This document shows positions 4,291 through 32,542 of a stretch of 64,000 nucleotides of DNA, in pieces. Location: assembly GCA_000004985.1 (NCBI GenBank), contig GG738871.1; one strand, written 5' to 3'. The stretch comes from Naegleria gruberi (Eukaryota). Both the position numbers and the translations under genes were made by a program. Each line of letters begins with the position of its first letter. The first letter of the stretch is position 1. Under the pieces are notes generated by a model. That model made no database searches and was not told where the DNA came from. It worked only from the letters and a program-made list of their open reading frames with translations.

Positions 4291-5856
4291 ATGCCAGAAG
4301 CTGCTGTCCTTTATCAATACCTCAAAAAGCATTCATCACTCTCCGTGTTGGTGGCCGTAGCATCACTCTCCTATTTGACCATTAGTGAAGTTTTAACCCG
4401 ATACTTTAACTTGTCTTCGATGACAAATTCATCTTCATGTCCAAATAATAGTATATTGGGTAATTCACTTTCCGAATATTTAAAACAAGATAAAGAACAT
4501 GTTCATATTGTAGGAGGAGGAATTTCTGGTTTATTGATGGGATTTATGTGTAAGGAATTGAAAATTCCCTTCACAATTTATGAAGCCAATGAAAATTCGT
4601 GTGGTGGCTTGTTGGGAAGTGAAAGAATTGCATTCAATCATGATGAAGAGTGGATGATTGCGGAGAAAGCAGCAAATGGTGTAATGTGGACTCCTCAAGT
4701 GGAATTGTTGTGTGAAAGGATTGGATTGATGGAAAGAGTTTTGTCAACCAAGAAGGAGGCGAAAGCAAGGTTTTTTGTTAGGAATGGAAAGTTGACTCAA
4801 TTTCCTATCAGTTATTTGTCAGTGTTTAATTTGTTGACTTGGAGAATGTGGAAATTGCCAGTGAATAGCTCATTCCAAAGTTTGGATGATTATTTTGGAT
4901 TTTATTTTGGTGAGGAAATTAAGAATCAATTTTTGGAACCTGCATTTGCTGGAATTTTTGGAACGACTCTGAATAATTTATCAGTTTTTGGCACAACTGA
5001 AATATTTCCAAAATTATTGAGTCAATCTTTGAGTTTTCCAATTTCGTTGGTGAAAAACGTAATTTCTGAAGTGTGGAATGGAATATTTGGAAGAAAACAA
5101 ATGAAATCTTCAAATAGGAGAGGTACGCACAGTTTCCAATGTGGTGTTCAAGATTTGATTGACCATTTAGTTCGCCACTTGGGTACAAACAATATCAAGT
5201 TTGGATGTGAAATTAAGGATTTATCTCATTTCCCAAGTGGTCAGAGAGTAATTTTAACAACGCCTGCCTATCAGACATTGAATATTCTTCAAAGTAATCT
5301 CTCTACCACTGAAAATGGTAGAGAATTGATTGAATTATTATCTAAAATTAGATATACTCCAATAGGTACATGTACTGTGATTGTGGAAAGAAGCAAGTGT
5401 CCAAAATTAGAGAAAGGGTTTGGCTGTCTCATTCCTAGAAATGAAGGAATGCACATTTTGGGAGTCCTTTTCAATTCATCTATTTTTGAGAATAGAGTTT
5501 CACATGATGAGAGATTTGCCAGTCTTACTTGTATCATGCAAGATAATGAAAAAAGTGGAAAACTCTCTGATGAAGAGTTATTGGAAAATATTGTTTCTAA
5601 AGAGTTGAGTTTATTATTCATGAACTCAAAGGAGGAAAACATTTCCATTGTAAAGAGCTCAATGAAGAGGTGGAAGTATGGAATTCCAGTTTATGACCAT
5701 CATCTTTACAAGTCTTGGAGCTCAATTCATTCCATCATGAAACAAGATTTACCTAATGTTAATTTATTTGGAAACTATACGGGACAGATTTCTATTCGTG
5801 GTATGATTGGACAAGCTGTTGAGCTTTTGACTAGTTTGGAAAATAGAAAGCATTAG
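4291..5856 (+). CDS. FAD-dependent protoporphyrinogen oxidase (HemY/PPOX)-like oxidoreductase with an N-terminal ~75-aa hydrophobic extension.
   Basis: Rossmann dinucleotide motif HVHIVGGGISGL is present. EPAFAGIFGTTLNNLSV resembles the PPOX GIYAGD region, and the C-terminal NLFGNYTGQISIRGMIGQA resembles the PPOX C-terminus. Single 521-aa ORF, TAG stop. Confidence 0.6.
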   Translation: MPEAAVLYQYLKKHSSLSVLVAVASLSYLTISEVLTRYFNLSSMTNSSSCPNNSILGNSLSEYLKQDKEHVHIVGGGISGLLMGFMCKELKIPFTIYEANENSCGGLLGSERIAFNHDEEWMIAEKAANGVMWTPQVELLCERIGLMERVLSTKKEAKARFFVRNGKLTQFPISYLSVFNLLTWRMWKLPVNSSFQSLDDYFGFYFGEEIKNQFLEPAFAGIFGTTLNNLSVFGTTEIFPKLLSQSLSFPISLVKNVISEVWNGIFGRKQMKSSNRRGTHSFQCGVQDLIDHLVRHLGTNNIKFGCEIKDLSHFPSGQRVILTTPAYQTLNILQSNLSTTENGRELIELLSKIRYTPIGTCTVIVERSKCPKLEKGFGCLIPRNEGMHILGVLFNSSIFENRVSHDERFASLTCIMQDNEKSGKLSDEELLENIVSKELSLLFMNSKEENISIVKSSMKRWKYGIPVYDHHLYKSWSSIHSIMKQDLPNVNLFGNYTGQISIRGMIGQAVELLTSLENRKH

Positions 5857-14295: not shown

Positions 14296-16971
14296 ATGGG
14301 TAATAAGGCTGTGAAACAATTAGGAGATGTTCCAAATGGTGATTTGGATTTGTTATCCTCCACATCTTTTAGAGAGGATTTATTTGATCAATTTCCGACT
14401 GTGATTAGCAAGTTGGAGCTTGGTGTGCAAGAATTTGAACAATTTATTAAATTGTGTGATGATACTGGATCTCTTTATAAATCAATTGCTAAAAAGTTTT
14501 CAGTGAATAAGAAAACAGAGGCGTATGTGTTTGTTCAATCTCATGTTTAAAGTTTTTAATAATTTAGAAGATTACCAACAAATGTTGTGGAAAAACTAAC
14601 TGCTGGTTTGGAATCAATTGCATCGGGATACTTGACTTCTATCAAGGAAATGGATAAATTGGAATTAGATGCTGATGAAGTAAAGAAGGAATTGAATAAT
14701 TATATTAGTATGGCAAAGAAGGAAGAGAAACTTCTCAGTTCTAAACTAGTTGCTGTACGAAAGGAAGAAGAAAAAATCAGAGATAAATTCTTTGATGAGA
14801 AATTGTTTATTCAAGAATCAAAATCAAATCTACTCATTAATTTAAAGGATTTAACTGAGAAAAAGATACTTGATATTAATAAGAAGATTCAAATATCTGA
14901 AGAAAATGTCATTAAACTTGAAAAGGAAGCTGATGTGATCAAGAGAAAGGTGAAGGAGGTTAGCAGTGAATACGATCTCAAACTCAGAAATATTCTTTCA
15001 CACTTGGAATTTATTGATAGAAAGAGATTTAGATACATGAAGGATTTAACAAAACGATTTTCACAAATTCAAACTAATACTGCCAAGATGGTTATTGAAC
15101 AACACGGAGTTGTTGATACAAAGATTGAACTTCTCAACGAAGAGAATGAATTTAACGAGTATATTACATCCGTAAAATCAATCAAACCAACATCCAACAT
15201 TATTTCAAAAGATTCTGAACAAAAATTACTTGTCAGAATTGCTTCTCAAAGTTGGGACTTTATGAAATCAGCATCAGGCACTGTAAAGAAGACCTTTGAA
15301 TCTGGAGAAAAGTTTACAGATTCTTTATTCCCTCCAAAAAACATCTCAATAGATCCAGAAATGGAAGATTCAGTTCTTTGGATGAGAGCTGTCGATTTAC
15401 TTGGCCCATTTAAAATCATTAGCCCTGAAACTGTTCTGGCCTATGATATCAAACCACAAAAATCAATTACTGGATATGAATGGTTGACAAGTGCTTTGGA
15501 ATTCATTGCATCCAAGCCAGCACTTATTGAAAGAATATTTGTTGTCAAGACTCCTAATGATTTGGGAATTTTAGAGCTAAATATGTGCATTGGAGGCGAA
15601 TTTTATAAGATTACCATTGATGATTTCTTCCCAGCAAGCAGAGATGGAAATCCATTGTACTCCTCAACAAAGAGCAAAGACCTTTGGGCTATGGCTATTG
15701 AAAAAGGAGTTGCTAAGGTTTGTGGAACATACAAGAGAATGGCATCATCTTCATTCACAATTGGTGATGCATTTGAATTATTGACAGGTTGTCCAAGCTT
15801 TTACCAACCAGTTGGTATTTCCAACACCAACCACTTGTGGAAGCCAATTTCTAACTTTACTCAAAGCAGAAATATTACTTGCTGTTTAACTCTTCCTTTT
15901 TCTGAAACTACAGCCACTTCAATTGGTTTACACCCAGTTTATCCATATTATTTAGTGGGATGCTTGGAAATGAACGGAAAGAAAATTGTTAAATTGAAAT
16001 GTACTAGAGGACCAGCAGAGTGGAAGGGTGATTATTCTGAATCAGATAGAGTCAACTGGACTCCAGAATACAGAAATGCACTCGGTGTGGATCAATCAGC
16101 ACAAGATGGATACTTCTTTATGCCATTCTCAGATTTTTGCAAGTATTTTGATAGTATGTCATCTTTCAAATATGATCCACTTTTAGCCAGATTCCAACAT
16201 AGAATTCCATACCCAAGCCCTTCTGATTCAAGCCCTCCAACCAATACAGTCACAGAAGTTTCCATTGAAACAGATCAAAAGGAAGTTTACTTTGGTCTCC
16301 ACCAAAAACATGACAGATTCAAGGGTTCTCCAGCTAGATCTGCCATGGGTTTCATTGTTGTTAGAAAGCAAGGTAGTAAGATTGTTGGTGCCGTTAGATT
16401 ATCCACAAATCCTTGTAATTATTCTGAAGGATTATCTTTAAGAGCTGGAGATTATCAAATTATTCCAATTGTTGCACAAAATGCTATTTCTGTAGATGTG
16501 TTTGGATCTGGAAATGCACCAAATCTTACAGTTGTTGTTCATGCTAGAGGTAATGTTAGAATGAAAACTGCTGAGAAGGTATCTATCAAGATGACTCCAA
16601 TTCAAAAATCAATGGTTGAGCAATTCTTGTCTGGAGTTATTCCAAAGAGTCCTTCCCTTATTATGGAAGAAGCTAAGTCTGCTCCACAATCTCCATCCGT
16701 TGTTGGTAACTTTACACCATTACAGGAAGAAATAACTGAAGCAGATAACTTTTTGAATCAAGAAATCACTCCAGAAGTTACTGCAACTCAAACAATTGAT
16801 GAATCACTCCAAGAAGAAGACTCAACACAAGTCATTGAGAAGGAAGAACTACAAGCTGAACAAACCGTAGAAGAACCACACGTAGAAGAAACAACCGATT
16901 TGGCTCAAGTAAAGGAAGACGATAATGTTATTCCCTCTGACGACCAAGAGCACTTTGAAGAATTTGAATAA
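14296..16971 (+). CDS. Calpain-like protein lacking the catalytic Cys (pseudoprotease), with N-terminal MGNKAV myristoylation motif and coiled coil. Probable 39-42-nt intron near 14529..14567.
   Basis: The C-terminal half aligns to the calpain protease core: ITGYEWLTSALEFIASKPALIERIFVV corresponds to QGxLGDCWLLAA (C to E, D to Y), and LWAMAIEKGVAKVCGTYKRMASSSFTIGDAFELLTGCP corresponds to LWvaLlEKAYAKlhGsYeaL.gG...eAledlTGg. ORFs 14296..14550 and 14587..16971 are in the same frame, separated by one stop that a GTTTGTT...TAG mini-intron removes. Confidence 0.65.
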
Positions 16972-17070: not shown

Positions 17071-20000
17071 TTATTTGAGGATAGTGTTGAGTTGCTCAGC
17101 AAGCTTTGAAGGGAAAAATCTCTTTGGTATTTCCAAAGAGTTGATCTTACCATGACCATCAAGCATATCAAATTCAAAAACATTAGCTTGGAGTGGCTTC
17201 TTGGATCCTAAATCAGTGAAATAGTTAAAGTCAACTAGAGGTTTGGATAAAACATTGTCCAGTGTTGGAATCTTCTTGCCAATGAGTTCTTCAATTTCGC
17301 GTTGAGAGAAGGTGGTATTTGAATACTCATCTGTTTCATAATTAGAATAGATATAGGCAATTTGTTGGACTGAAAGTTCTGGACAAATCTCTTGTCTTGT
17401 ACCTTCATCTTCAAGCAATTGCTTTTGAGCAATAACACAAATATCAGCTGCTTGTCTAGAAAGTGTAAAGTAAACTTGCAACTTTTCTTCATCAAAGTCC
17501 TCATTGTCATGGAATTGTTTTCTCAAAGATTGAACAACATTCTTAGAGTTGAACCAATTTTCAAGGAAGGCAACACTCATCTTAACTGAAAGACCCTTGG
17601 AGGCAGAAGCATCCTTGATAAAGTGATTGAATATAATTGAATCCAAACACATGGCAACATTTTCAAAAATGTGATTAACAACACGTTTGTCCAGCTTTTG
17701 TTGTTCAACACGTTGGTAGATTTCAGTAAGAAGTGAAATACACAATCTCATATCTGGACCACCATCTGTTGATTTGGATGAAGCTTGTTTTGGATTGAAC
17801 ACCGCCTTCACTAATCTGTCCTTCAAAAATTGGACAATCTTGGAACAGAGATTGAGATAGGCTCTAGCAAGAATATCAGTAAGAGCATCAGTAAATTCTT
17901 GCATGTCGGCAACATAAACTTCATCATCCTCAAGTACAGAGTATACTGGTGGTTCGGCCAAAATACGTTCTTCTTCCTTTGCCAAAATTGCTTGAACAGT
18001 GACACCTTCCATTGTTTCGAATGAGTGATGAACTTGATTTTCGTTTCCACTTGATTGATAGAGGTTCAAAAGTCTGTATAATACATTAACCCAATACATC
18101 ATCATCTCCTCATCTCTGGCATATCTATCTACAACGTAGGACAGAGCCTTGATAATATTTGTACAGAAGAATTTACTCGATTCTGGAGAGAACTTTAGAG
18201 TTGAGAGGAATAAAACCTTGGTTGGAGTTGGAACTTTAGAGCTTCCCAAATAGTCACTAGGTTGACTGTAGATGATTGCAGATTCAATAATGAACTTCTC
18301 TACATCAGAATTTTGCAATGATGATATTTGCTCTTTCAATTTCTTGGTTTCTTGTTCATTACCTGTCTTTGACTGTTTAAAATAATAATAATAAAAATAT
18401 TGGTTAGTAAGTTGAATAAAAATAAATAGAAAAGTGATAATTTGTTATCAGTTAGTTTTTAAGTTAGAAAAGTGTGAGTGTAAGTGTAAAAGTTAGAAAT
18501 GATATTTGCCTTTTGGTTTTCATCAAATTGTTTTTGAACTTTTTCAAGTCTTCTCTTGTCTTGCTCCAATTCATCAATTTGTTCTTCCAATTCGGTTATT
18601 CTGTTCTTTCCCTTCTTTAATTTGTTTTCCAATTCCGAGAATTTATCATCCATGTCCATAACTTTTTGGTTTAATTCCTCATTTTCTTCCTTCAACTTTT
18701 CAATTTCCTCCTCAAGTGCAAACTTTGACTTTTTATCCTCATTAACAGAATTCTATAATAATTAATAAGTTAGTACATAAAAATTCAAATTAAATAAAAA
18801 AACATAGTGAGAATTGTGGGTGATGTGTTAGTGTAAAAGTGTGTGTGATATTTGCCTTTTGTTGTTGTTCAATTTCTTCAATTCTTTCCTCAAGTTCTCT
18901 GATCAAAGTATCCTTCTCCTTGAGCTCATCTTCAGTATTCTTACTCTTTTCACTACTACCCTTCTTCAATTTTGCAATTTGATTACCAAGCTCATCAACT
19001 TCTTCTTGAAGTTGATTACGTTCTTTTTCTATCTTGGACAATTTAGAATCAACACTGTCTAGATCTTGTTCCAACTCTTCAATCTTTGAATCCTTTTGGC
19101 TATTGTCATCTTCCAACACTTGAAGTTGTCCAGAAAGCTTCTTGCATTCCATGGCTTGCTTTTTAGAATCTTCTTCAGCCTTTGCGACTTGTTGTCTGAG
19201 AGTTTCAAGTTCCTCAACCTTTGAATCAATAAGTTCATTCAATTTTATCACTTGGGTTTCACTCTCTGTAAGCTTCTTTTCTGTATCACCTAGTTTCTTT
19301 TCCGTTTCTCCAAGCTTCTTTTCGAGAGTTGTTTTTTGCTTCTTGACAATATCATCCATGGAAGCAGAATTCTTTGACAAACTTTCAATTTCTAAAATTT
19401 TTTCAGATAGGTCTTTTTCCTTTTCTTTGATCTTTTCTTCCAATTGCTGATTCTTGCTCTTGATAGTGGTAATCTCAATATCTAGATTCTTTCTCTCTTC
19501 TCTTAATGATTCGACAAGTTTGTTCAAATCCACTTCAGTTGACTATTTAAAGGTCATATGATATAAATTGTTAGTATGTTGTTTAAAATAAATGTGAAAA
19601 AAAAATGTGACATCACAGTTAGTACAAGTTAGTTCGCACCCAATAAAAAATCTAGCCTTTGGCTTTCATTCTTAAAGGGACAAATTGTTAGTTCTGGTTA
19701 GATACTTAAAGTTTTTGAAAAATATCCCGCACTCTTTGCAGAGATTGAGTGTGTAGTGTAAGATATGTACCTTTAGTTTTCTTGCCTCGGAATTAATATC
19801 AGAAACCTCATTAAATGTTTCTAAAACAGTAGAGAAGTGGCGACTAGCTTCTTGTTTCAGTTCCCCAATCGTGTTTTTCAAATGTGTAATTTCCTCAAGC
19901 AACAATTCTTCCACTTGCTTGCTAGCTTCTTTCAATTTCTTGCATTCTTCTTTCAAGTCTTCAACTTGTTGTTTGTAGCTCTCAATATCCTTATCTTTTT

Positions 20001-22958
20001 CTTCGCAGCTCTTCTCTATTTGTTTGGTTTCACTAATAGCAGCTTCTAGCTCTGAGGTAACATCTTCTACCTTCTTCTTATAAGATTCAAGGGATTGGTT
20101 GAGGTTCTCTAACTCTTGAGTAAGGTTTCTGTTCTTCTCTTCAACTTTTGAACATTTTTCTTGGTATTCTGAAAGCTTGTTTTCGATTTGAATAACAACT
20201 TCGTCAGTGTGTTGAGATGATTGCTTCTTGACATCTTCCACTCTTTCTTTAAGTTCAGAAATTTCTTTTTGGAGAGAATCTTGCATTTCTGCCTTGCTCT
20301 TTTCTGAGGATTGCCATTTTTGGGTGGCCTTTTCAACATCTTGTGAGTGTGCATTCTTTTCCTTCTTTAATTCATCCTTAAGACGTTCAACCTCATCAGT
20401 AACCTTCTTCAAATCTAATGCGAGTGCTTCCTTTCCTGATTTCAGCATTGACATCTTTGTTGAATATTCATTATCCTTGGAGAGGTATTCCTGTTTGAGG
20501 TTTTCCATTTGTTTCTTGAGAGATTCCTTTTCCTTGGTAGCAGCTTCCTCTTGTTTGTTGCGAGTTTCTATGGATTGTGTCAATTGAATGTTCAAAGCTG
20601 ATATCTTGGATGCCAAGTCATCTCTTTCCTTCTTGATATCTTGTAAATTTCTTTCCAATGATTCATTCTTTTCCTGTATCATAGTATTGGTATTTTGAAT
20701 TTGTACAATATTGGAGGTTAATACTTCGGATACAGCAGAAATCTCTTCCTTAACTTCATTTTCTAATGTTTGCTTAGCCTTCATAATACTCTCATCAGAA
20801 ATACCGTTTCTCATATTTTCAACAATATCAGAAAATGAGTCAGAGTGAGTAAGAATGCTTGAAAGCTCATCACTATTACCCAATTGGGTTGCTGTTTGAA
20901 GAAGGGTGTTTTGAATCTTAGTCTTGAGTGTTCTAAACTCCAAAAGACAAGAAAGAAGTAGCTCTCTATGCTTAGTTGCAGAAGATATTTCCTTACTTTG
21001 TTGAGAAACCAATTCAGCCAAACCCTTTCTTTCTTCCTTCAATCTATTAATGTCTGTTTCAAGTTCTTCAATTTCTACCTTTCTCTTTGTCTCTTTGGAA
21101 CTAAATTCTTTCTTTAGCTGATCAATCTCATTTTCATAACGAGTTTTGCTTTCTGACAAGTCTTTTTCATTGGTTACCTTAAATATATGAAGTTAGGAAT
21201 TATTCTATATCTCAATTATAAAAATGAACTTAACAGGGTGAGACTCTTTTCAGTTAGTTAGGTGTGAGTGTAATTAGTGTCAAGTGTACGTGTCGTGTGG
21301 GTTGATGTTTATACTTTACCTTTTGTGATTTCATATCTTCTTGAAGTTTTTCATTTTCTCTCTTCATTTTATCCATTTGCTTCTTGTCTGCAATGAGTTG
21401 TTCCTCATATTCCTTAGCTTGTTCTCTCATATTCTTGATTTCTTCTTCCAAATTTTGAACCTTTTCGTCATATTCGTATGAGAGGGATTGTTTTTGCTTT
21501 GAAGATGATGCACGACCATTTTCATTTTCTTCTTCAAGGTCCTTGATTCTATCCTTCAACTTTTTAATTTCTGTTTCATTCTTTTGAGCTTGCTTTTGCT
21601 TTAATTGAAGTTCAAAGAGCTTGCTATCAACTTCTTGTTGAGATTCCTGAGCCTTGTCTCTTTGTTTTATCAAATCTTCATTTTCTCTTTGGAGATTTTT
21701 AAGTTTTTCAACAGCTGAATCTCTTTCTTTTTGAACCTTTTTAAGCTATTAAATGTCAATATTCTCAATCTTTGTACACCAACTTACCAAATTAGTCTTG
21801 TCATTTTCTTTGAGAGTCTTGACTTGTTTCAAGAGCAATTTTACCTTTCTCTTGAGGTGATTAATTTGTCTTTCAAATTCAGCAGTATCTACATGTGATG
21901 AAACTTGAGCAGATTCATCAGTTTCAGTGTGCTGATTATTTTCTTCATCCTCATCTTCGGTTCCCTTTTCAACTTGTTCATCCTCTTCTTCTGGTTCTTC
22001 ATCGTGGTGTTCCTCAGGATGTTCTTCTTCGTCCTTTATTTGCTCTTCGATATCTCTTTCAATATCCTCTTCATTTACTTCAACTTCAGGTTCATGATGA
22101 TCCTCTTCGTCATAATTATGTTCCTCATGATCATTATAGTCGTGCTCTTCGTGTTCTTCCTCATCCTTATCCTCACCAATATCCTACAAATTGATTGTTA
22201 ACAATTACTACAATAATTAAACATACTTGATTTGTTCCTTCATCTTCATCGACTTCATCATTACCTCCAGTATAAGTACTAACAGCAGTAAAATCATCAT
22301 CACTTAATTTTGTTACAATCATACAAGTTCTAGTAGAATACTTACTTTGGATTTTGATCCTTTAAACATTTAGAATTGATAACAAGTTTCAATTTGGCCT
22401 TGCTACTATCCTTTGTTGGCATGTCTATTTCCTTTGTGGATGTCTTTTCAGAATCTTCATCTACAAACAATGCCAAATCCAAAGTTTCCTTCACAAGTGT
22501 ATTTGTTTTTCCATTCTTTCCTTTCTCTTCCAATGTGATTTGAAGATCTTTCTTTTGGAATTTACCCTTTTTAAAATAGAGAGTTCCATTGAATTTAAAT
22601 GTTCTATTCCAAATAATACGGGTACCTTCAATCTTGTTAAATTCGGTTTCACCCTTTCTCTTTTTTCCTCTTTTCCAAAATATCTATTATTGTGATTGTA
22701 TCATAAAACGTTGATGATATTATAATGATGATGACAGCGTTGTTGATGTTTGATAAGGAATTTAATGATGATGGGTATTATCATAGTGATGATATTTAAA
22801 TATTATGATGAAAATAATAAACATACAGCATAGGTACATTCATCCTTCTTCTTTTCCTTCACTTCGGTCAAGTGATCAATAGAAAGGTTAAATTGAAACT
22901 TGAAAGCCTCCCTATTCGTAACCTGTTGGGCTACTTTGCTTTGTAACTTTTTAAACAT
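17071..22958 (-). CDS. Large multi-exon gene: N-terminal NT-C2-like domain, acidic region, ~1000 aa coiled coil, and a C-terminal myosin-V-type DIL/globular-tail cargo-binding domain, with no motor domain. Proposed exons (minus strand): 22827..22958, 22346..22683, 22227..22302, 21788..22183, 21320..21745, 19771..21178, 18856..19542, 18510..18751, 17071..18372.
   Basis: Exons 1-2 read MFKKLQSKVAQQVTNREAFKFQFNLSIDHLTEVKEKKKDECTYA/IFWKRGKKRKGETEFNKIEGTRIIWNRTFKFNGTLYFKKGKFQKKDLQITLEEKGK... (NT-C2-like). The last exon reads ...LLTEIYQRVEQQKLDKRVVNHIFENVAMCLDSIIFNHFIKD... (DIL-like). All junctions were checked for frame continuity. Introns are 42-230 nt with GTAAGT/GTATGT/GTACAT donors, except two putative GC donors (AAG|GCAAAT) at 18504-18509 and 18850-18855. 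Confidence 0.5.
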
Positions 22959-23357
22959 GATTAAATACTACTAAACACTATGGAGCAAGGTAGATTTCAA
23001 TCTGATAATAAATTAATGAATGATGTACAGGAGAGATTGATAATCTTCTACTACCGTTGGTTGCTAATTAATTTTTTTTAAATATTTTTTAAAAATGCAA
23101 AATTATCCACCAAGAATAGCCAAGTGACCAATTGCTTCTGGTAGACAAAATGCAACGGTCATCATGCGTACTGTGAAATTTAAAAAATCAAGCGCCAAAT
23201 GATTCTCTTTGCCCAATTGACAGTTTACTTTTTTATTCTGTACAGTTATTTATTATGGATGTTGTGAGGTTTCATTAAGAATTAATACCGCTTTTTATCA
23301 TTTAAATTTGTAATGTTAATGATATCATTGAATATTCGTCTAGACTCTGTTATTGAG

Positions 23358-25070
23358 TTATTTTTCAACTAATGGTATTAAGAAATGGTTTGGTATTTTA
23401 CAATCGAAATAGGTTTCAGTCATTCTGATTTTTCTGAGTTTTTCAAACTTTTCTCGTTTAGGAAAAAAGCAAAATCCGTTCTGTTTAGCAGCAATTTCGC
23501 TTATTGTTTCATCTTTACGATGCAATGGAGCATGATATAATAAAAATCCATTCTTTTTAACCAATTCCATTACAATATTTCGATTTTTTAAAATTAAAAA
23601 ATTCATTTCTTCTCTTCCAATTTTCACATTTGGATTACGGACTTTCCATAGCCTTTCGTCATTGGTCAACCTATCTGAAGCTCCAAAAAAAGACCCTTTA
23701 TATTTGACTGCTGCCTCAACAACCTCAATATCGTTCTTTAGTTCGCTTGCCTCAATAAGAACACTTTTTAAAATTGAATCATTTTTCAATAATCGAATAA
23801 TGAATTGCTTGTCTCTCTTCAGAGTTGGATCTAAGAGTCTCATAAAATTCTGACAATTATTGTTATTTTCCAAAAGGGATTCAATAAATTCTTTGTCATG
23901 TTGTAACTCATTAGAGGCAAATAGGAAAGCCTTACACTCTTTCTTTACAGCATGTGTTACGATAGATTTGTCATTAATCAACACATCAGATGCAGCTTCC
24001 AAAGCTGAAGGAAAATTTGATATGGCTTCCCATACAATTTCATAATCATTTCTGTAAATATAGGGACAATAACAAAGCACGCCCCCTGATTTTCTCACAG
24101 TTTGCAAAACCAAATCTCTGTCAATACTATCCTCTTTCATCTTTGGAAAAATATACTCTATTCCATTGACGGCCAATTGTAACATCTCTCTAACAAATAG
24201 ATCATCATTCTTTAACTCTTCAGATGCATACATCATTGCACTTCCATGGATTAATATTGATCTTTTTACAATTTCTCTATGATTTCGGAATTCAGGTTTG
24301 ATAAATTCAATAATATTTGCAAATAAAGAACATTCCAAAATAAAGTCAACATCTTGCTTCAGATCATCGGTTGCATATTTAAATTGATATCGATTTTTTT
24401 TCACACAATTCAAAACCAATTCTCTATTGGATTTTAGCTCATCAGGGAATGATTCTAGACATGAGAAATGTTTCAAAATTTCAATGTCATTATGAAATTC
24501 TTTGGGTAAAAGGTGTTTTAGATCGGTCGAATTCATTCTTGCTATCATCTCTTTATGCGTGAAAAACAATCTATCACTTGCCAATTCATCTAAATAGGGT
24601 AGTAATGTCTCTCCGATTTTTACTTGGTAAGGCTCAATATTAGAAAGGACGAATTCTCTATTATTTCTCAATTCTTTTGACGCAAATTGAAACATGTTTG
24701 GAAAAATCATACAACAATCTTTCACAATTTGTGGATTGTTTTTAACATGAAAAGGTGAATCTTCACATAGCTGAAAATAATATTCCAATCTGAGGTTATA
24801 TTCTAAATACCAATAAAAAAACTTTTGTGCTATTGGATTTTTCTTGCCATTAGAAATTACAAACTCAAAAACTTCTTTATCATCAGTAAATTCGAGAGGC
24901 AAAAATTTGAATCTGTCTGGGTTCTCAAAATGTAAACGTCTGTTTTCGAGATAAAGAAGAAATCCTTTTTGTTGAGTTTGAAATTTTCGGATTAAAAGTT
25001 TGACTTGATGAGAAATGCAATGATCAAAATCTATCAGATAGAGAGTGGTGTGATGTGTGCTTCCAGACAT
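23358..25070 (-). CDS. DUF4116-repeat protein.
   Basis: About 12 degenerate ~35-aa repeats of the form ELKNNREFVLSNI / DELKSNRELVLNCVKKNRYQFKYATDDLKQDVDFIL / ELKNDIEVVEAAVKYKG. Single 570-aa ORF. Confidence 0.6.
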   Translation of the reverse strand: MSGSTHHTTLYLIDFDHCISHQVKLLIRKFQTQQKGFLLYLENRRLHFENPDRFKFLPLEFTDDKEVFEFVISNGKKNPIAQKFFYWYLEYNLRLEYYFQLCEDSPFHVKNNPQIVKDCCMIFPNMFQFASKELRNNREFVLSNIEPYQVKIGETLLPYLDELASDRLFFTHKEMIARMNSTDLKHLLPKEFHNDIEILKHFSCLESFPDELKSNRELVLNCVKKNRYQFKYATDDLKQDVDFILECSLFANIIEFIKPEFRNHREIVKRSILIHGSAMMYASEELKNDDLFVREMLQLAVNGIEYIFPKMKEDSIDRDLVLQTVRKSGGVLCYCPYIYRNDYEIVWEAISNFPSALEAASDVLINDKSIVTHAVKKECKAFLFASNELQHDKEFIESLLENNNNCQNFMRLLDPTLKRDKQFIIRLLKNDSILKSVLIEASELKNDIEVVEAAVKYKGSFFGASDRLTNDERLWKVRNPNVKIGREEMNFLILKNRNIVMELVKKNGFLLYHAPLHRKDETISEIAAKQNGFCFFPKREKFEKLRKIRMTETYFDCKIPNHFLIPLVEK

Positions 25071-25183: not shown

Positions 25184-26807
25184 TTAGTAAAAGGAAATAT
25201 TCATCTTGGCAAGTTGCCTTGGTGCAATATAGGAATAGTAAATCCACTTTTCTAAGAATTGAGGTTTTTTGTGTCTATACTTTACAATGAAAGGATGTTG
25301 GAGAAGACTTGTCGCACTTGGTCTTTCTTTTCTATTGACTCTTAATGTAGAATAAATAAAATCTTTGAACTCGTCAGATGCACCTTCGAGAGGGAATGGA
25401 GCATCAGTTGATTTTTCCAAAAAGTTTAACATGTCCCATATTGAGGCGTTAGCACTTAAAACAAATGGAAATACTCCTAGAAATGCTTCAGCAATAGTTA
25501 AACCAAATGACCAAATATCTGAATCGTAAGAATGTGGTTGACCTCTAATTCTCTCGATCGACATGTATGCATGGGTTCCACAGTATGTTTCAAATTTACA
25601 GGTTTGTTGGAGATTTTGCAAGTACTTTTGTGATCTTTCTAGACCAGCCATTCCAAAGTCTGCAATGCAAACCTCTCCTGTATTGTGGACCAAAACATTG
25701 GCAGGTTTCTTTTAACCATTATTAATCATCAAGATTCAATAAACTTACAATATCTCGATGAACAATTTTCTTTACAGTGTGCAAATATTCCAACCCTAAA
25801 AGCAATTGTTCACAAATCCTCGAAAGAATACTCTCTGGTATTCTGCCTGAAACAGCTAAAACATCTTCCAAAGATCCACAATCTTAAACAGTTACAAATA
25901 GAGCTAGTTCAATTACATACCCATAAATTTCAGTATCATTAAAATACAGCCTTGTCTATAATAGGCGTCATATAGAGTCATTACATAGGGACAGTCGCTG
26001 AAATAAACAAGTAAATGAATCATTGACATTTTCAAAAACTTACTTGTTATACAGTGCTTTAAATTCTGAGACAATTAACTTGGGTTTTTGATCGTTTAAA
26101 TCTACAGTAATTTTCTTCATTGCATAAATTTGTTTCGTCTTTTTATGCATTACTTTATAGACTGTTGAGGAGGCTCCCTTTCCTAATTTACAAACTTCCT
26201 CAAGATCCTCATAAATCATGTGTTCAGTATTTACAAAAGACATGGATGATGAAACGTTATTAGAAGGTGATGAAGAGGTAGAATAATCCATGCTAGTCCT
26301 AAATTGTTCTGATGCAATACTTCCACCACTCGATGGAGATGACTGCAAAAAGGGAGTATGCAATTTTGAAATGGTAGATTGATGAATACCATCTTGACCA
26401 ATCACAATTTGATCTCCAAATCTAAATGTTCCATCATTTCTATTAGTTTATAGTTTTTGATCCAATTCATGATGATATTGTGACGATTAAATAATAATAT
26501 TTAATAATTCAAAATACTATTATATACTGTACATTTTAACTGCTTCATCCACATATTTCTCCTCAGCAATTTTAATTATTTCCGTTGGAATAGTCGTATC
26601 TGGTTGTTCCGATGGTGTTGTTACATTTCCCAATATTAAATTTGTAGGTTTGTTTTTTCTAGGCTTTTTTGATTTGTTACTTGATGATGGTGAAGATGAA
26701 ATAGATGGTGAGGAAACATTCGATGAACTCGAGTAATCTTCATCATCCAAATTCATTCCACTCAATGAGGTTGTTATATTGGTGAGGTTGCAACCTTCTT
26801 CTCCCAT
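25184..26807 (-). CDS. MAP kinase kinase (STE7/MEK)-like Ser/Thr protein kinase. Five exons: 26533..26807, 26044..26439, 25921..25997, 25749..25882, 25184..25708.
   Basis: Kinase subdomains are reconstructed across four tiny introns of 93, 46, 38 and 40 nt: GKGASSTVYKVMHKKTKQIYAMKKI, ...KALYN/NDCPYVMTLYDAYYRQGCILMILKFM/DCGSLEDVLAVSGRIPESILSRICEQLLLGLEYLHTVKKIVHRDI/KPANVLVHNTGEVCIADFG...GTHAYMSIERI. The N-terminus has a MAPK-docking-like KKPRKNKPTNLIL motif. Confidence 0.7.
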
Positions 26808-27638: not shown

Positions 27639-30600
27639 ATGGTTACTGGAGGCAATCTTTCAGTATCTTGCTTTAAACAAGATGTAAAATCAGTTAGAGG
27701 CCTCATTGTCCTTCTCTTGTTGATTCTCTGTTTGACAACAATTGAGAAATGTTGTGGATATTACTACACAATGAATACTGTTGGTACCTTCACTTCTGGA
27801 ACCACCTTGTATCAAATGGACAAGTCCAAATTCTTCGCTAACAGATTCTACGTAGCAACAAGTGGAGGTCTTCAGTATTTCACTGTATCAAGTGGTGTGG
27901 CAAATCCAAGTAATTCTTATGTGTATAGTGGTGGGTTTCAAACTACCAGTATGGCAAATGTTGTTGTCAGAAGTACATCATCAAGTAAAGATGATGTTTT
28001 TTCTGGTACCATTAACACCTCCACTTGGAGGTATGGTTCAATAGCCAGTTCAACCACTACTGGTAATTCACTCACCAGTTGTGGCGTTATTGTTGCTGGT
28101 GTAAAACTCGATGCAAGCTCTACAACTTTTTCTGTGATTGGCAATGGTGTTGTGGGTACATTAACAATGACAACAGGTGGTAGTGCATCTTGTTCTGCAG
28201 TTACCTCATTTACAGGAGTTTCTGGCACAAGTACCACGCCATCTACTGATGGCACAGGTAGCGCAGCTACTGTTTACTCTAGTGGTACTCATGACATTAC
28301 CAAAAATTCAACATCTGGTGTAAGTATGAGAAAATTCAATTAATTAGATCTAACAACTGGCAGGTTTATTATTTTACTGAGGATTCAAAGATTAGAAAGG
28401 TTGTTTCAACTACTATCACAACTCTGGTAGGAGGAACTACTGGTACAGTGACAGATGGTACTCTCTCCTCTGCTACAGTTAAAAATCCAAGTTTCATGTC
28501 CATCTTGGGTGCAGGTGTAAGTTTTATTGCATTGTTATGATATATTAAACTGTTAACAGCTTGTATTTTCGGATACTGGTAGTAATAGAATTAGAGTTTT
28601 GGATACAGCCAATGAAGAAGTTGTTACTATTGCTGGTGGTGGCTCAACTACCCCATCAGGTACTGCTTCACTATCTGGTGCAGCAACAGGTTTTTCTTTA
28701 ACTAGCCCAAGAGGCATTTATGTGGACACTGATGACAGTATTTATTTTGTTGAAGGAATTTATGTTAGAAAGCTTGTCTATTCTTGTGAAGCAAATGAAA
28801 TTTATCAAGCAGGCTCATTCCCACCATGTGCTTGTAATACTACTGCTGGTTATGTGAGATCTGGAACTTCTTGCGTACCTACCTGTTCCAATTGTAATGT
28901 CAATCAAACATGTACTGGTCCAGAAACTTGTTCTTGTAAGAGTGGATATTCAGGAACAGATTGTTCTGCTTTTACCTGTTTTGGTGTAGCTCAAGATTCT
29001 ACATCTGTTTGTAATTCTAAAGGATATTGTGTTGCACCTGACACGTGTATATGTAGTGATACCTCCACTTTCTTTGGGTCAAATTGTAATGTGACTTATT
29101 GTAATTCTATTCCATCAACGAGTGGTAGTGTTTGTTCAGGACATGGAAGTTGTACTGATTATAATACTTGTACTTGTAGTGATACCAATTCATGGACAGG
29201 ATCTGATTGTGGAACACCTGTATGTGCAGTTGTGAGTGGAGGTGTTTGTTCTGGAAGAGGTAGTTGTACAGCTCCAAATATTTGCACTTGTAATGAACCA
29301 TCAAAATATGGTGGATCTTCATGTGAAATTCCAAAATGTAATGGAACACTTCAAGGCAATTCTGGTGTTTGCAATGGAAGAGGTTCTTGTATTGATGTTG
29401 ATACTTGTCAATGCACTGTTCCAACCTCTTGGGGTGGTTCATTCTGTGAAAAACCATACTGCTCTGGAATTTTACAAGGTGCAGCTGGTGTTTGTTCAAA
29501 TAGAGGAGTTTGTTCATCTCCTGATTCTTGTGTTTGTAATGAACAAACAAAGTATGGTGGTTCAAATTGTCAACTTGTCAAATGTGGAGGTTATTTGGAA
29601 ACAGACTCTGCTGTTTGTAACAAGAATGGTTCATGTATTGCTGTTGATACTTGTTCCTGTAATTCAAATTATGGTGGTTCAGATTGTCAATATCCAAAGT
29701 GTAATGGCATTGCTTCGAATAGTGGTAGTGTTTGTAATTCACAAGGATCATGTGTTGCACCAAATGTTTGTGTCTGTAATTCAAATTATGCTGGACCATT
29801 ATGCGAATATCCAAAATGTAATGGCGTAGCTTCCAATGATGCAAGTGTTTGCAATTCGAATGGAACTTGTACTGGTGTTAATACTTGTGTTTGTAATGTT
29901 AACTATACAGGATCATATTGTCAATATCCAAAATGTAATGGAATATCTTCCAATGATGCAAGTGTTTGTAATAACAAAGGTGGTAATTGTATTGCACCAA
30001 ATGTTTGTTCATGTAATTCAAGTTATACTGGTCAATTCTGTCAATTCCCAAAGTGTAATGGTATTGGATCCAATGATGCAAGTGTTTGTAATGCAAATGG
30101 TACTTGTATTGGAATTAATGTTTGTTCATGCAATTCAAATTATGCTGGTCCATATTGTCAATATCCAAAATGTAATGGTATTGCTTCAAATAGTGGTAGT
30201 GTTTGTAATTCACAAGGATCATGTGTTGCACCAAATGTTTGCGCCTGTAATTCAAATTATGCTGGTACATATTGTGATAAACCAAGATGTGGAACCTTTT
30301 ATAAGGGAGATGCTTCTGTTTGTAATTCGAGAGGTAGTTGTGATGCTGTTGATAGTTGTACTTGTAGTGATACATCTTCTTGGGGTGGTAATTTGTGTCA
30401 ATATCCAAAATGTAATGGTGTTCTTTCAAATATTGGAACTGTTTGTAGCAGTAGAGGTACTTGTCAATCTCCAAACAATTGTTCATGCACTGATCCAAAT
30501 TCATATGGTGGTTCATATTGTGAAAAAGCAAAATGTTATGGAATTCTTCAAGGAGATTCAAATGTTTGCAGTGGACATGGTACTTGTAGTGGTGTGAATC

Positions 30601-32542
30601 AATGTTCATGCAGTGCTGGATATGGAGGTGAACAATGTCAATATCCAAAATGTTTCAATATTTTGAGTAATGAAACAACAGTTTGTAACAATAGAAACGG
30701 TACTTGTACTGCACCTGACACTTGTTCATGTAATAATGGATGGACTGGAAGCAAGTGTGATGTTGCCATTTGTTTTTCAATTCTCTCCAATTCAACAAGT
30801 GTTTGTTCAAACAAGAGAGGTAATTGTGTCACACCAGATAATTGTGTTTGTAAAAGTCAATATTCAGGTTCTCAATGTGAATATACCACTTGTTCTGGAA
30901 TAAGATCAGATCAACATCGACAGTATGTTATGGAAATGGTCAATGTATTGATTATTTACTTGTAATTGTACAACTGGTTATGGACCATCCAATGTATGTC
31001 AATATCCAATTTGTGGTGGTTATTTAGCAAATGATACCAGAGTTTGTAACAATTCAAGAGGTGTTTGTTCCAAACCAAATACATGTAGACCATTAGATCC
31101 CGTATGTTATGGTAAAGCTCAGAATAATTCAATGGTTTGCAGTGGAAATGGAGCATGTGTTGATTGGGATTATTGTGAATGTAAAACTGGTTTCAATGGA
31201 AATGAATGTCAAAATTGGGAATGTTATGGAAAGAATTATACCAACTCAAATGTTTGTAACAATAGAAATGGTACCTGTTCATCTGTGAATAATTGTGTTT
31301 GCAACAGTGGATGGTATGGAAATGAATGTACAGTTCCAATGTGTAATGGAATTCTTGCTAATTCATCTCTCATTTGTAACAATAGAAATGGTACCTGCTC
31401 CAAACCAGGTGCATGTCAATGTAATACTGGATACACAGGACCTGATTGCTCCATTCCAATTTGTTATGGAAAATTAGGCAAGTGACACAAGTAATGTTTG
31501 TTCAGGAAGAGCAGAATGTATTGGTTATAACAAGTGTAATTGTGACACTTCCAAGTATAGTGGTTCACAATGTGAATATTTCAAATGTTTTGGTATTCCA
31601 TCAAATGATGCTTCAGTTTGCAGCAGAAACGGAACATGCTCTGGAGTGAATCAATGTTCTTGTAATTATGGTTATGGTTCTTCAAATTGTGACATTTTCA
31701 CATGTTCAAACGTTCTTGCCACCGATTCGAGTGTTTGCACTGGAAAGGGTGTATGTTATGGAATTGACAAGTGTTCATGTGATTCAGGATATTTTGGATC
31801 AAATTGTGAAATTATCTCCTGTTATGGAATTCCAAAGTCCAACAATACTGTATGTGGAGGAGTTGGTGAATGTTCACAACTTGATACATGTGTTTGTGGA
31901 AGCAATTATAGAGGATCAATGTGTGAATTATCTTACACCTCTTCATCTCAAGCAACACTTCAATTCAATAATACGAATGAATATGTGAATGAACAATTCA
32001 CAAGCATGGCCACTTTGACAATTAATAATCCTCTCTTCGGTCAATATTATTTGAGAAGAAGTGTTCAAGTTGTTGTTTCATTTGAAATTAATTCACAATT
32101 CAGTTATTCTGAAACACTTTATATTGAAAATGGAGTTTCATCTGTTTCATTAATGGTGAAATCGTTGAGTCAAACTGGTACATTGAAAGCATCTGCTCAA
32201 TTAATTGATAATAGTACATTAATTTCCATTTCAGATAGCATTCAATCTTCAAATAGCATTACAATTCAAAATAGACCTATTGTTGTTCCATCCACAACGA
32301 CATCCACAATCAAACCAACAACCTCTGCACAAACAAGTAGAGCTGTTATCGATACAGGAAGTAATGGTGGAGCCATTGCAGCTGGTATCATTGTTCCAGT
32401 GGCAGTTATTGGAATTGGAGGTGGTGTCACTGCAGCCATTGTCACAGCAGTTGTTTTGTTAAAGAAGAAGGCTGCTGCAGCTGCTGCCAAAGAAATTACA
32501 CATGCTCAACACGTCAATGTTGAACTAGCTGAAGGTTTCTAA
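27639..32542 (+). pseudogene. NHL-propeller/EGF-repeat membrane protein paralog A. Exons 27639..28319, 28364..28516 and 28560..32542; three frameshifting indels near 30913, 30956 and 31480 relative to paralog B.
   Basis: Same architecture as B (44914..49716). 28860-32542 is ~98% identical to 46030-49716 at nucleotide level, but reading requires frames 0, 1 and 2 (ORFs 28599..30965, 31132..31485, 31646..32542). Could be a recent pseudogene or assembly indels. Confidence 0.55.

What the first reader, a model, noticed from the sequence alone, without database searches (positions are those of the whole stretch)
17071..22958. Motor-less NT-C2 / coiled-coil / DIL protein: unusual cargo-adaptor-like architecture
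The C-terminal ~420 aa resemble the myosin-V/afadin DIL cargo-binding tail. The N-terminus resembles the NT-C2 membrane-binding domain, and ~1000 aa of heptad-rich coiled coil lie between. No myosin head, RA or PDZ domain is present in the window. This would be a long rod linking membrane to cargo, an arrangement I cannot match to a described family.
Basis: partly seen in the sequence, partly recalled or inferred. Interest (0 to 1): 0.55.

Follow-up and report, generated by a model that had tools for sequence, protein, structure and literature searches.

The report
Motor-less NT-C2–coiled-coil–myosin-V-tail protein
A heterolobosean amoeba (Naegleria/Willaertia-like) gene encodes a 1668-residue protein with a lipid-binding-type C2 domain, a ~970-residue coiled-coil rod and a complete myosin-V-type cargo-binding tail but no motor; it belongs to a widespread, catalogued but unstudied protist family and probably acts as a passive membrane-to-vesicle tether.

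Summary
Nine minus-strand exons (22958→17071) splice into one 1668-aa ORF. [quoted passage not shown] The modelled tail matches the whole myosin V/XI globular tail domain.

No myosin head, RA, PDZ or CH domain is present. Upstream is a separate DUF4116 gene and downstream a convergent calpain gene.

A metagenome orthologue has all eight introns at the same positions, including two GC-AG introns, and also gives one ORF. Willaertia magna has a 1730-aa orthologue.

The architecture is not unique. NT-C2 + coiled coil + DIL tail recurs in Heterolobosea, Euglena, Carpediemonas and three amoebozoans, several as complete transcripts. None of 40 tail relatives scanned has a motor. I found no paper describing the family.

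Best reading (inferred): a dimeric, motor-less tether or adaptor. Paired NT-C2 domains would sit on acidic membranes and paired tails would bind Rab or adaptor-marked cargo, up to ~140 nm away. This resembles EHBP1 and EEA1 in logic.

It is a real gene of moderate interest and a long-rod variant of a known but uncharacterised kind.

The parts
17071..22958 (-). Whole gene: 9 exons at 22958-22827, 22683-22346, 22302-22227, 22183-21788, 21745-21320, 21177-19771, 19542-18856, 18752-18510 and 18372-17071 (stop included). The product is 1668 aa.
   Evidence: In-frame splicing gives no internal stop. The L001 orthologue has the same 8 intron positions and also yields one ORF, of 1638 aa. The Willaertia KAL9645710.1 orthologue is 1730 aa.
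22357..22913 (-). NT-C2 domain, aa 16-153; the span includes intron 1 (22684-22826).
   Evidence: Pfam PF10358, E=7e-18, 65 bits against a cut-off of 25.2. The AF2 model of the 70%-identical Willaertia domain is an 8-strand sandwich, and Foldseek matches it to C2 domains with TM 0.65-0.75.
22654..22677 (-). WKRGKKRK basic motif (aa 47-54), with K3, K4 and K8 at the extreme N-terminus. These are the candidate lipid-binding patches.
   Evidence: R49 and G50 are invariant, and WKRGKK is the consensus across 15 NT-C2 domains of this family. In EHBP-1, basic patches at the N-terminus and on strand 2 are needed for PI(4,5)P2 membrane binding (PMC4894640).
21875..22292 (-). Acidic, His-rich low-complexity linker, aa 161-285 (32% E, 15% D, 8.8% H, no Leu).
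   Evidence: Composition. Linkers of the same acidic, His-rich character occur in the L001 and Willaertia orthologues, with only 28-52% identity.
18313..21874 (-). Coiled-coil rod, aa 286-1255 (970 aa). A less heptad-like, conserved segment lies around aa 520-600.
   Evidence: 0 Pro, 1.3% Gly, E 17.5%, K 16%, L 11%, with a raised a/d-position hydrophobic score. Weak Pfam matches are to coiled-coil families only. The central part, aa 640-920, is only 20-30% identical to the orthologues, as expected of a spacer.
21488..21745 (-). Conserved proximal rod module, aa 315-400, containing KLFELQLK. It is a candidate partner-binding site.
   Evidence: 75-78% identical to L001 and 45-65% to Willaertia, against 20-30% for the mid-rod. 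The motif KLFE[IL]QLK occurs only in the long-rod subfamily (P0002, P0004).
17074..18312 (-). Complete myosin V/XI-type globular tail domain (GTD), aa ~1256-1668.
   Evidence: phmmer against PDB matches the MyoVc GTD at E=3e-8 over ~280 residues. The family profile matches the MyoXI-K GTD at E=6e-45 (residues 4-375 of 395) and MyoVb/Va/Vc at about 1e-43 to 1e-40. The AF2 model has pLDDT 78.9 and pTM 0.76. The top 39 Foldseek PDB hits are all MyoV/XI/Myo2/Myo4 GTDs; those to the MyoV and MyoXI tails have TM 0.57-0.68 over ~350-420 columns, Myo2/Myo4 lower.
17329..17670 (-). Pfam DIL core, aa 1470-1583.
   Evidence: PF01843, E=6e-14, 52 bits against a cut-off of 24.
18753..18855 (-). Intron 7, GC-AG (AAG|GCAAATATCA ... 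TACTAAC ... TAG).
   Evidence: No in-phase GT donor reaches the acceptor (reading of the sequence). The same GC donor lies at the same position in L001.
18373..18509 (-). Intron 8, GC-AG (AAG|GCAAATATCA ... CTTACTAAC ... CAG).
   Evidence: The junction agrees with the Willaertia protein, with no indel.
22959..23357 (-). 5' intergenic region, presumably holding the promoter, between the stop of the DUF4116 gene and the ATG.
   Evidence: One search lists no ORF of 50 aa or more on the gene's strand, and only short open stretches (26-48 aa). The upstream ORF is a separate protein with eight DUF4116 repeats.

Best explanation
The gene encodes a motor-less, probably homodimeric rod protein. It belongs to an old protist family that joins an N-terminal NT-C2 domain to a C-terminal myosin-V/XI-type globular tail domain (GTD).

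Shown: the two end domains, the proline-free rod between them, the absence of any motor, and conservation of the whole gene in related species.

Inferred mechanism: the rod forms a parallel two-stranded coiled coil. This presents two NT-C2 domains at one end, which dock by their basic patches (KK at 3-4; WKRGKKRK at 47-54) onto acidic phosphoinositide-rich membrane. At the other end, up to about 140 nm away (970 aa x 0.15 nm), two GTDs capture a Rab-GTP or adaptor-marked vesicle or organelle.

The protein would thus tether or position cargo passively. In logic it resembles EHBP1 (NT-C2 membrane anchor plus Rab-binding C-terminus) and long coiled-coil tethers such as EEA1. The acidic, His-rich linker next to the basic NT-C2, and the conserved proximal rod module (aa 315-400), are candidate regulatory or partner-binding elements.
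For: Gene model and domains.

Full GTD.

C2 fold of the orthologous N-terminus. Conserved basic motif. In EHBP-1 the equivalent patches are required for PI(4,5)P2 membrane binding (PMC4894640).

Rod composition.

One gene: the L001 orthologue has identical intron positions and phases and an unbroken ORF. There is a Willaertia 1730-aa orthologue. Complete transcripts carrying both domains exist in Heterolobosea sp. BB2, Percolomonas and Euglena.

No motor: no Myosin_head hit in this protein or in any of the 40 tail relatives scanned. The flanking genes are a DUF4116-repeat gene and a calpain gene.

Selection pattern: the ends and a proximal module are conserved (50-85%), while the mid-rod is free to drift (20-30%), as expected of a spacer between two functional heads.

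GTDs of motor myosins bind Rabs and the exocyst (PDB entries listed; paper titles and abstracts).
Against: There is no experimental or transcript evidence for this locus. Dimerisation, strand orientation, lipid binding and cargo identity are all inferred.

NT-C2 is not always the localising element: in Lotus RPG, the coiled coil rather than the NT-C2 domain sufficed for localisation and function (PMC9931111).

The tail is only ~15-18% identical to solved GTDs, so the Rab and adaptor sites need not be conserved. Tail residues 373-415 are modelled at low confidence.

Confidence: 0.5

Rival explanations
1. It is an actin-linked adaptor rather than a free tether. The GTD or the rod would recruit a separate myosin or an actin-binding partner, so that the protein couples membranes to the actomyosin system indirectly. 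This would be an EHBP1-like role split over two polypeptides.
For: The same lineages have paralogues in which the same kind of tail is joined to an actin-binding CH domain instead of NT-C2: Willaertia P0014, N. fowleri P0021 and locus L002. EHBP1 combines NT-C2 with CH. The conserved proximal rod module could be a docking site.
Against: No actin- or myosin-binding domain is detectable in this protein. GTDs are known as cargo-binding modules, not motor-binding modules.
Confidence: 0.2
2. It is a regulator or decoy. The motor-less GTD would compete with motor-borne GTDs for Rabs or adaptors, or fold back on the NT-C2 or acidic linker as an autoinhibited switch. It would then control cargo availability rather than bridge two membranes.
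For: Expressed headless tails act as dominant negatives in plants, and headless myosin XI genes exist. The strongly acidic linker next to a strongly basic NT-C2 suggests intramolecular masking.
Against: A conserved ~970-aa rod is an expensive spacer for a decoy. The tail is far diverged from motor GTDs. It is not established that heteroloboseans have a DIL-bearing myosin to compete with.
Confidence: 0.12
3. The locus is mis-modelled. It would be two or more genes (an NT-C2 gene, a coiled-coil gene and a DIL gene), or a myosin whose head exons lie elsewhere.
For: There are no transcript data for this locus. Two junctions depend on non-canonical GC donors.
Against: All eight intron positions and phases, including both GC donors, are conserved in a 51%-identical orthologue that also yields one ORF. 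The Willaertia annotation gives one protein. Transcript-derived paralogues carry both domains. The protein starts with an N-terminal-type domain directly after a 400-bp intergenic region, with an unrelated gene upstream.
Confidence: 0.04

Closest known systems
Uncharacterised protist NT-C2 / coiled-coil / DIL-tail proteins. Examples: Willaertia magna KAL9645710.1 (1730 aa), N. fowleri XP_044569341.1 (834 aa), Acrasis kona KAL0488697.1, Carpediemonas KAG9396312.1, Euglena EG_transcript_2686, and transcripts from Cavostelium, Luapelamoeba and Soliformovum.
   Same: They share the same three-part architecture and homologous end domains. Willaertia and locus L001 are true orthologues, 40-51% identical overall with the same start, and L001 has the same introns.
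   Different: Most members are 575-1000 aa with a short coiled coil. The window protein, L001, Willaertia and P0004 form a long-rod subfamily with an acidic linker and a KLFE[IL]QLK module. None has a studied function.
Class V / XI myosin globular tail domain (MyoVa/b/c, Myo2p, Arabidopsis XI-K)
   Same: The whole two-subdomain GTD fold and the DIL signature are shared. The presumed role is the same: binding Rabs, adaptors or the exocyst on cargo.
   Different: The window protein has no motor, no IQ neck and only ~15-18% identity. Its N-terminus is a C2-type domain instead.
EHBP1 / EHBP-1 (NT-C2 + CH + Rab-binding bMERB coiled coil)
   Same: Both have an N-terminal NT-C2 with basic patches and a C-terminal module that, in EHBP1, binds Rab8/10. 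Both therefore follow a logic of membrane anchor plus Rab effector.
   Different: The window protein has no CH domain and no bMERB. Its C-terminal module is a GTD, and the spacer is a ~970-aa rod.
Plant RPG (NT-C2 + four long coiled coils, 1176 aa) and PMI1
   Same: Both combine NT-C2 with a long coiled coil and show punctate, vesicle-associated biology (PMC9931111).
   Different: RPG has no GTD. Its NT-C2 was dispensable for localisation and function.
Motor-less DIL proteins of animals (afadin, RADIL, RASIP1) and headless myosin XI of plants
   Same: In both groups a DIL or GTD module is used without a motor.
   Different: Afadin, RADIL and RASIP1 carry RA, FHA and PDZ domains, none of which is found here. 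Plant headless myosins are recent truncated copies of myosin XI and have no NT-C2.
Long coiled-coil tethers (EEA1, golgins); functional analogy only, from general knowledge
   Same: Both have a lipid or membrane anchor at one end, a Rab or cargo-binding module at the other, and a coiled coil of 100 nm or more between them.
   Different: The end domains are unrelated (FYVE, zinc finger, GRIP). There is no homology.

Membership tests
NT-C2 domain family (PF10358) | Profile match above the curated threshold | tested here: met
   65.1 bits against a cut-off of 25.2, covering aa 16-153 and profile positions 2-139 of 143.
NT-C2 domain family (PF10358) | [quoted passage not shown] | tested here: met
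   The domain starts at aa 16 of an ORF whose ATG follows a 400-bp intergenic region. The orthologues begin with the same MFKKLQ.
NT-C2 domain family (PF10358) | C2-type beta-sandwich fold | tested here: met
   The AF2 model of the 70%-identical Willaertia domain has pLDDT 85.5 and 8 strands. Foldseek matches it to C2 domains at E about 1e-7 with TM 0.65-0.75. The window's own spliced sequence could not be submitted.
NT-C2 domain family (PF10358) | Binding of acidic phospholipid through basic patches | not testable with these tools
   The basic patches are present and conserved: K3, K4, K8 and WKRGKKRK, with R49 and G50 invariant. Binding itself needs liposome assays.
Myosin V/XI globular tail domain (DIL, PF01843) | DIL profile match above threshold | tested here: met
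   52.4 bits against a cut-off of 24, at aa 1470-1583.
Myosin V/XI globular tail domain (DIL, PF01843) | Complete two-subdomain helical GTD fold | tested here: met
   The family profile covers residues 4-375 of the 395-residue MyoXI-K GTD (E=6e-45). The AF2 model aligns over ~410 columns with MyoV GTDs at TM 0.59-0.68.
Class V / XI myosins (as a myosin) | Myosin motor head and IQ neck N-terminal to the coiled coil | tested here: not met
   No Myosin_head or IQ hit at E<=1. The N-terminus is an NT-C2 domain, and the neighbouring genes are DUF4116 and calpain.
Afadin / RADIL / RASIP1 | RA, FHA and (in afadin) PDZ domains accompanying DIL | tested here: not met
   None is reported by Pfam at E<=1.
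EHBP1 family | CH domain and C-terminal bMERB (DUF3585) after the NT-C2 | tested here: not met
   Neither is reported by Pfam. A GTD takes the C-terminal position instead.
Protist NT-C2 / coiled-coil / GTD family (unnamed) | NT-C2 at the N-terminus and a GTD at the C-terminus on one polypeptide, with homology of both ends to other members | tested here: met
   15 of the tail homologues carry a homologous NT-C2. Pfam confirms both domains. The members come from Heterolobosea, Euglena, Carpediemonas and Amoebozoa.
Plant-type headless myosin | Recent truncated duplicate of a motor myosin, with the tail closely similar to the parent | tested here: not met
   The tail is 12-18% identical to motor GTDs. 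All of its nearest relatives are motor-less.
Coiled-coil membrane tethers (functional class) | Parallel dimeric rod that bridges two membranes | not testable with these tools
   Only composition and heptad-like spacing are shown. Oligomeric state and bridging need biochemistry, EM or imaging.

The most novel reading that the evidence does not exclude
Motor-less GTD proteins anchored by NT-C2 (or, in paralogues, by CH, cNMP-binding/ion-channel or RasGAP modules) would form an ancient, pan-protist, motor-independent cargo-capture system. The myosin-V-type tail would work in it as a general Rab or adaptor receptor on static tethers. If Carpediemonas, which has such a protein, lacks myosins as Trichomonas and Giardia do, or if heteroloboseans lack DIL-bearing myosins, the GTD would be shown to have a life independent of myosin. 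The tail may even have been recruited to myosin V/XI from such tethers.
Probability: 0.15. Interest if true: 0.6.

Novelty: new variant of a known kind. Interest (0 to 1): 0.35.

Why it matters
Cargo recognition by the myosin V/XI tail has been studied almost only with the motor attached. This family shows the same domain wired to a membrane anchor instead, across at least three eukaryotic supergroups, and nobody appears to have studied it.

If it is a passive tether, it adds a new class to the short list of long coiled-coil tethers. It would also give a simple system, in Naegleria, for asking what a GTD recognises when no motor is involved. And it bears on whether the LECA myosin-V-like tail was originally a motor appendage or a free adaptor.

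In practical terms, the gene is a well-supported model for annotation. Profile scans can miss the domains in such rod-rich proteins: Pfam reported nothing for the Willaertia orthologue.

Tried and rejected
1. Source genome. Exact-sequence look-ups of three window ORFs found nothing. The organism is therefore inferred only from homologues and from the DUF4116 neighbour to be a Naegleria/Willaertia-like heterolobosean. The full spliced protein could not be looked up.

2. Word-indexed protein search. It returned very little for the tail, the NT-C2 domain or the tail profile: 1, 2 and 2 hits. The exhaustive representative search was what revealed the family.

3. Metagenome locus scans. The single-protein query found nothing, the wide alignment had no usable pattern, and the four-sequence alignment found only one CH-type paralogue fragment, L002.

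4. AFDB Foldseek was unavailable.

5. Zhang & Aravind 2010 (PMC2965036) could not be read. I therefore cannot say whether it already depicts NT-C2+DIL. My unverified recollection is that it discusses NT-C2 as a link between membranes and actin-associated adaptors.

6. Rfam and tRNA scans of the locus and the whole window gave nothing significant. This rejects the idea of an intron-hosted snoRNA in intron 6.

7. Internal repeats in the rod: self-BLAST gives only the identity hit.

8. Rejected readings. A headless recent myosin derivative, because the tail is too diverged and the N-terminus is NT-C2. An afadin-like protein, because there is no RA, FHA or PDZ domain. An EHBP1 orthologue, because there is no CH or bMERB domain.

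9. I did not map Rab11-contact residues of MyoVb onto the tail. At 15-18% identity, either outcome would be weak evidence.

Full report
**Observation**

The region 17071-22958 lies in AT-rich (about 33-35% GC), intron-bearing eukaryotic DNA. On the minus strand, nine open segments join through eight short introns (42-228 nt) into a 5007-nt CDS encoding 1668 aa with no internal stop. Six introns are GT-AG. Introns 7 and 8 both begin AAG|GCAAATATCA and carry TACTAAC-type branch sites, so they are GC-AG. Reading the sequence, no in-phase GT donor can reach either acceptor.

**Domains**

Pfam finds two domains well above their curated cut-offs:
- NT-C2 at aa 16-153 (E=7e-18, 65 bits against 25.2).
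- DIL at aa 1470-1583 (E=6e-14, 52 bits against 24).

Nothing else appears except weak coiled-coil families. There is no Myosin_head, IQ, RA, FHA, PDZ, CH or bMERB domain.

The protein has four parts:
- A Lys-rich NT-C2 domain (aa 1-160).
- A linker at aa 161-285 with 47% D+E, 8.8% His and no Leu.
- A rod at aa 286-1255 with 0 Pro, 1.3% Gly and a composition rich in E, K, Q and L.
- A globular tail (aa 1256-1668).

The tail is more than the 105-residue DIL core. Several results show this:
- phmmer aligns about 280 residues to the MyoVc GTD (E=3e-8).
- A 25-sequence family profile covers essentially the whole MyoXI-K GTD (E=6e-45) and the MyoVb, Va and Vc GTDs (about 1e-43 to 1e-40).
- An AlphaFold2 model has pLDDT 78.9 and pTM 0.76. 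Its top 39 Foldseek PDB hits are exclusively myosin V, XI, Myo2p and Myo4p tails; the MyoV and MyoXI hits have TM 0.57-0.68 over ~350-420 columns and the yeast Myo2/Myo4 hits are lower.

I therefore modelled the 70%-identical Willaertia domain instead. The model has pLDDT 85.5 and is an eight-strand sandwish-type fold (an eight-strand beta-sandwich) that matches solved C2 domains at TM 0.65-0.75.

**One gene, no motor**

A 6.3-kb metagenome contig (L001) is colinear with the whole protein. Using splice sites at the same eight positions and phases, including both GC donors, it gives one 1638-aa ORF that is 51% identical overall.

Willaertia magna KAL9645710.1 (1730 aa) is a full-length orthologue with the same MFKKLQ start and no indels at the GC-intron junctions.

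Upstream on the same strand, 400 bp away, a separate ORF with eight DUF4116 repeats ends. Downstream, a calpain gene converges, with 99 bp between the stop codons. There is therefore neither room nor need for head exons.

**Conservation**

Conservation is bipartite:
- NT-C2 is 65-85% identical to the orthologues and the tail 50-75%.
- A proximal rod module (aa 315-400, containing KLFELQLK) is 75-78% identical to L001.
- The mid-rod (aa 640-920) is only 20-30% identical.

This is the pattern expected of a spacer between two functional ends.

**Relatives**

An exhaustive search with the tail found 65 relatives. All 40 that I scanned with Pfam lack a myosin head. Fifteen carry a homologous NT-C2 at their N-terminus, and Pfam confirmed both domains. 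They come from these taxa:
- Naegleria fowleri and N. lovaniensis
- Willaertia
- Acrasis
- Heterolobosea sp. BB2
- Percolomonas
- Euglena gracilis
- Carpediemonas membranifera
- the amoebozoans Cavostelium, Luapelamoeba and Soliformovum

Several are complete transcript-derived ORFs. These show directly that the two domains are co-transcribed in this family.

Most members are 575-1000 aa. The window protein, L001, Willaertia and P0004 form a long-rod subfamily with the acidic linker and the KLFE[IL]QLK module.

Other tail relatives carry different N-terminal modules:
- a CH domain (Willaertia, N. fowleri, L002)
- cNMP-binding, with or without ion-transport domains
- RasGAP

The GTD is therefore a promiscuous, motor-independent module in these lineages.

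**Mechanism (inferred)**

In EHBP-1, the NT-C2 domain binds PI(4,5)P2-rich endosomes through basic patches at the extreme N-terminus and on strand 2 (PMC4894640). Here the corresponding K3, K4, K8 and WKRGKKRK are present, and R49 and G50 are invariant across the family.

GTDs of myosins V and XI bind Rab GTPases, adaptors and the exocyst (PDB entries; papers listed).

A 970-residue proline-free heptad-rich rod most simply forms a parallel dimer about 140 nm long. I therefore favour a dimeric passive tether or adaptor (about 0.5). It would be membrane-anchored at the NT-C2 end and capture Rab- or adaptor-marked cargo at the GTD end. In logic it is comparable with EHBP1 and EEA1.

The rivals are:
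- an indirect actin or myosin coupler (0.2)
- a decoy or autoinhibited regulator (0.12)
- a mis-modelled locus (0.04)

One caveat: in Lotus RPG, which has NT-C2 plus a long coiled coil, the NT-C2 domain was dispensable (PMC9931111).

**Comparison and novelty**

The protein is a member of the NT-C2 family and its tail is a member of the GTD/DIL family. It is not a myosin, not afadin/RADIL/RASIP1, not EHBP1, and not a plant-type headless myosin.

Full-text searches found no paper that mentions NT-C2 together with DIL, or NT-C2 together with Naegleria. The paper that defined NT-C2 (Zhang & Aravind 2010) is not held and may already show the architecture.

I rate the finding as a new, long-rod variant of a known but uncharacterised kind. 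The gene is real, its model is well supported, and its interest is moderate.

Noticed in passing
window 18753-18855 and 18373-18509 (minus strand); L001 4183-4294 and ~4538-4678: Two consecutive GC-AG introns both start AAG|GCAAATATCA and share ACAC-rich 5' parts. Both GC donors are conserved in the orthologue from another species. The two introns look paralogous, which suggests an old exon-plus-intron duplication.
   Followed up: partly
window 19543-19770 (intron 6) against L001 3303-3516: The first ~85 nt of intron 6 are noticeably conserved between species (GTACATATC, TGCAAAGA-TGC, TCTAAC), as is a GATGTCACA element further on. There is no Rfam match and no explanation.
   Followed up: partly
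window 21875-22292 (aa 161-285): The acidic, His-rich linker (EEHEEHDYNDHEEHNYDEEDHH...) keeps its character but not its sequence in L001 and Willaertia. It could bind metal ions or Ca2+, or mask the basic NT-C2 electrostatically.
   Followed up: no
window ~20975-21216 (aa ~520-600): A conserved, less heptad-like segment sits within the rod (SCLLEFRTLKTKIQN...SDSFSDIVENM...). It may be a hinge or a small helical insertion.
   Followed up: no
proteins P0014, P0021; locus L002 445-741 and 2929-3216: Naegleria, Willaertia and a metagenome contig hold a paralogous motor-less family of CH domain + coiled coil + GTD-like tail. Other tail relatives carry cNMP-binding with or without ion-transport domains (P0029, P0058) or RasGAP (P0035 and others).
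   Followed up: partly
proteins P0002 and P0004: Pfam hmmscan reported no family at E<=1e-4 for the Willaertia orthologue and for P0004, although both clearly contain the tail and P0002 the NT-C2 domain. This is probably the effect of HMMER's bias filter on rod-rich proteins. It may explain why they are annotated as 'hypothetical protein'.
   Followed up: no
window 23358-25070 (-): A 570-aa single-exon ORF made of eight DUF4116 repeats (222 bits). By my recollection this repeat family is abundant in Naegleria, which supports the taxonomic guess.
   Followed up: partly
window 14587-16971 (+): A calpain-family cysteine protease (Peptidase_C2, E=1e-37) has a coiled-coil-like N-terminal region and an acidic C-terminus. 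It converges on the gene, with only 99 bp between the stop codons.
   Followed up: no
window 289-4107 (+) and 28599-30965 (+): Two large proteins rich in EGF or teneurin-type EGF repeats lie in the same window.
   Followed up: no
window 25184-25693 (-): This ORF encodes the C-terminal half of a protein kinase domain. It is probably one exon of a spliced kinase gene upstream of the DUF4116 gene.
   Followed up: no
whole window: No exact match was found for three window ORFs in the public gene-position collection. The nearest sequence found is P0073, a 129-aa metagenome fragment 88% identical to the NT-C2 domain. The source genome is apparently not in the searchable collections.
   Followed up: partly
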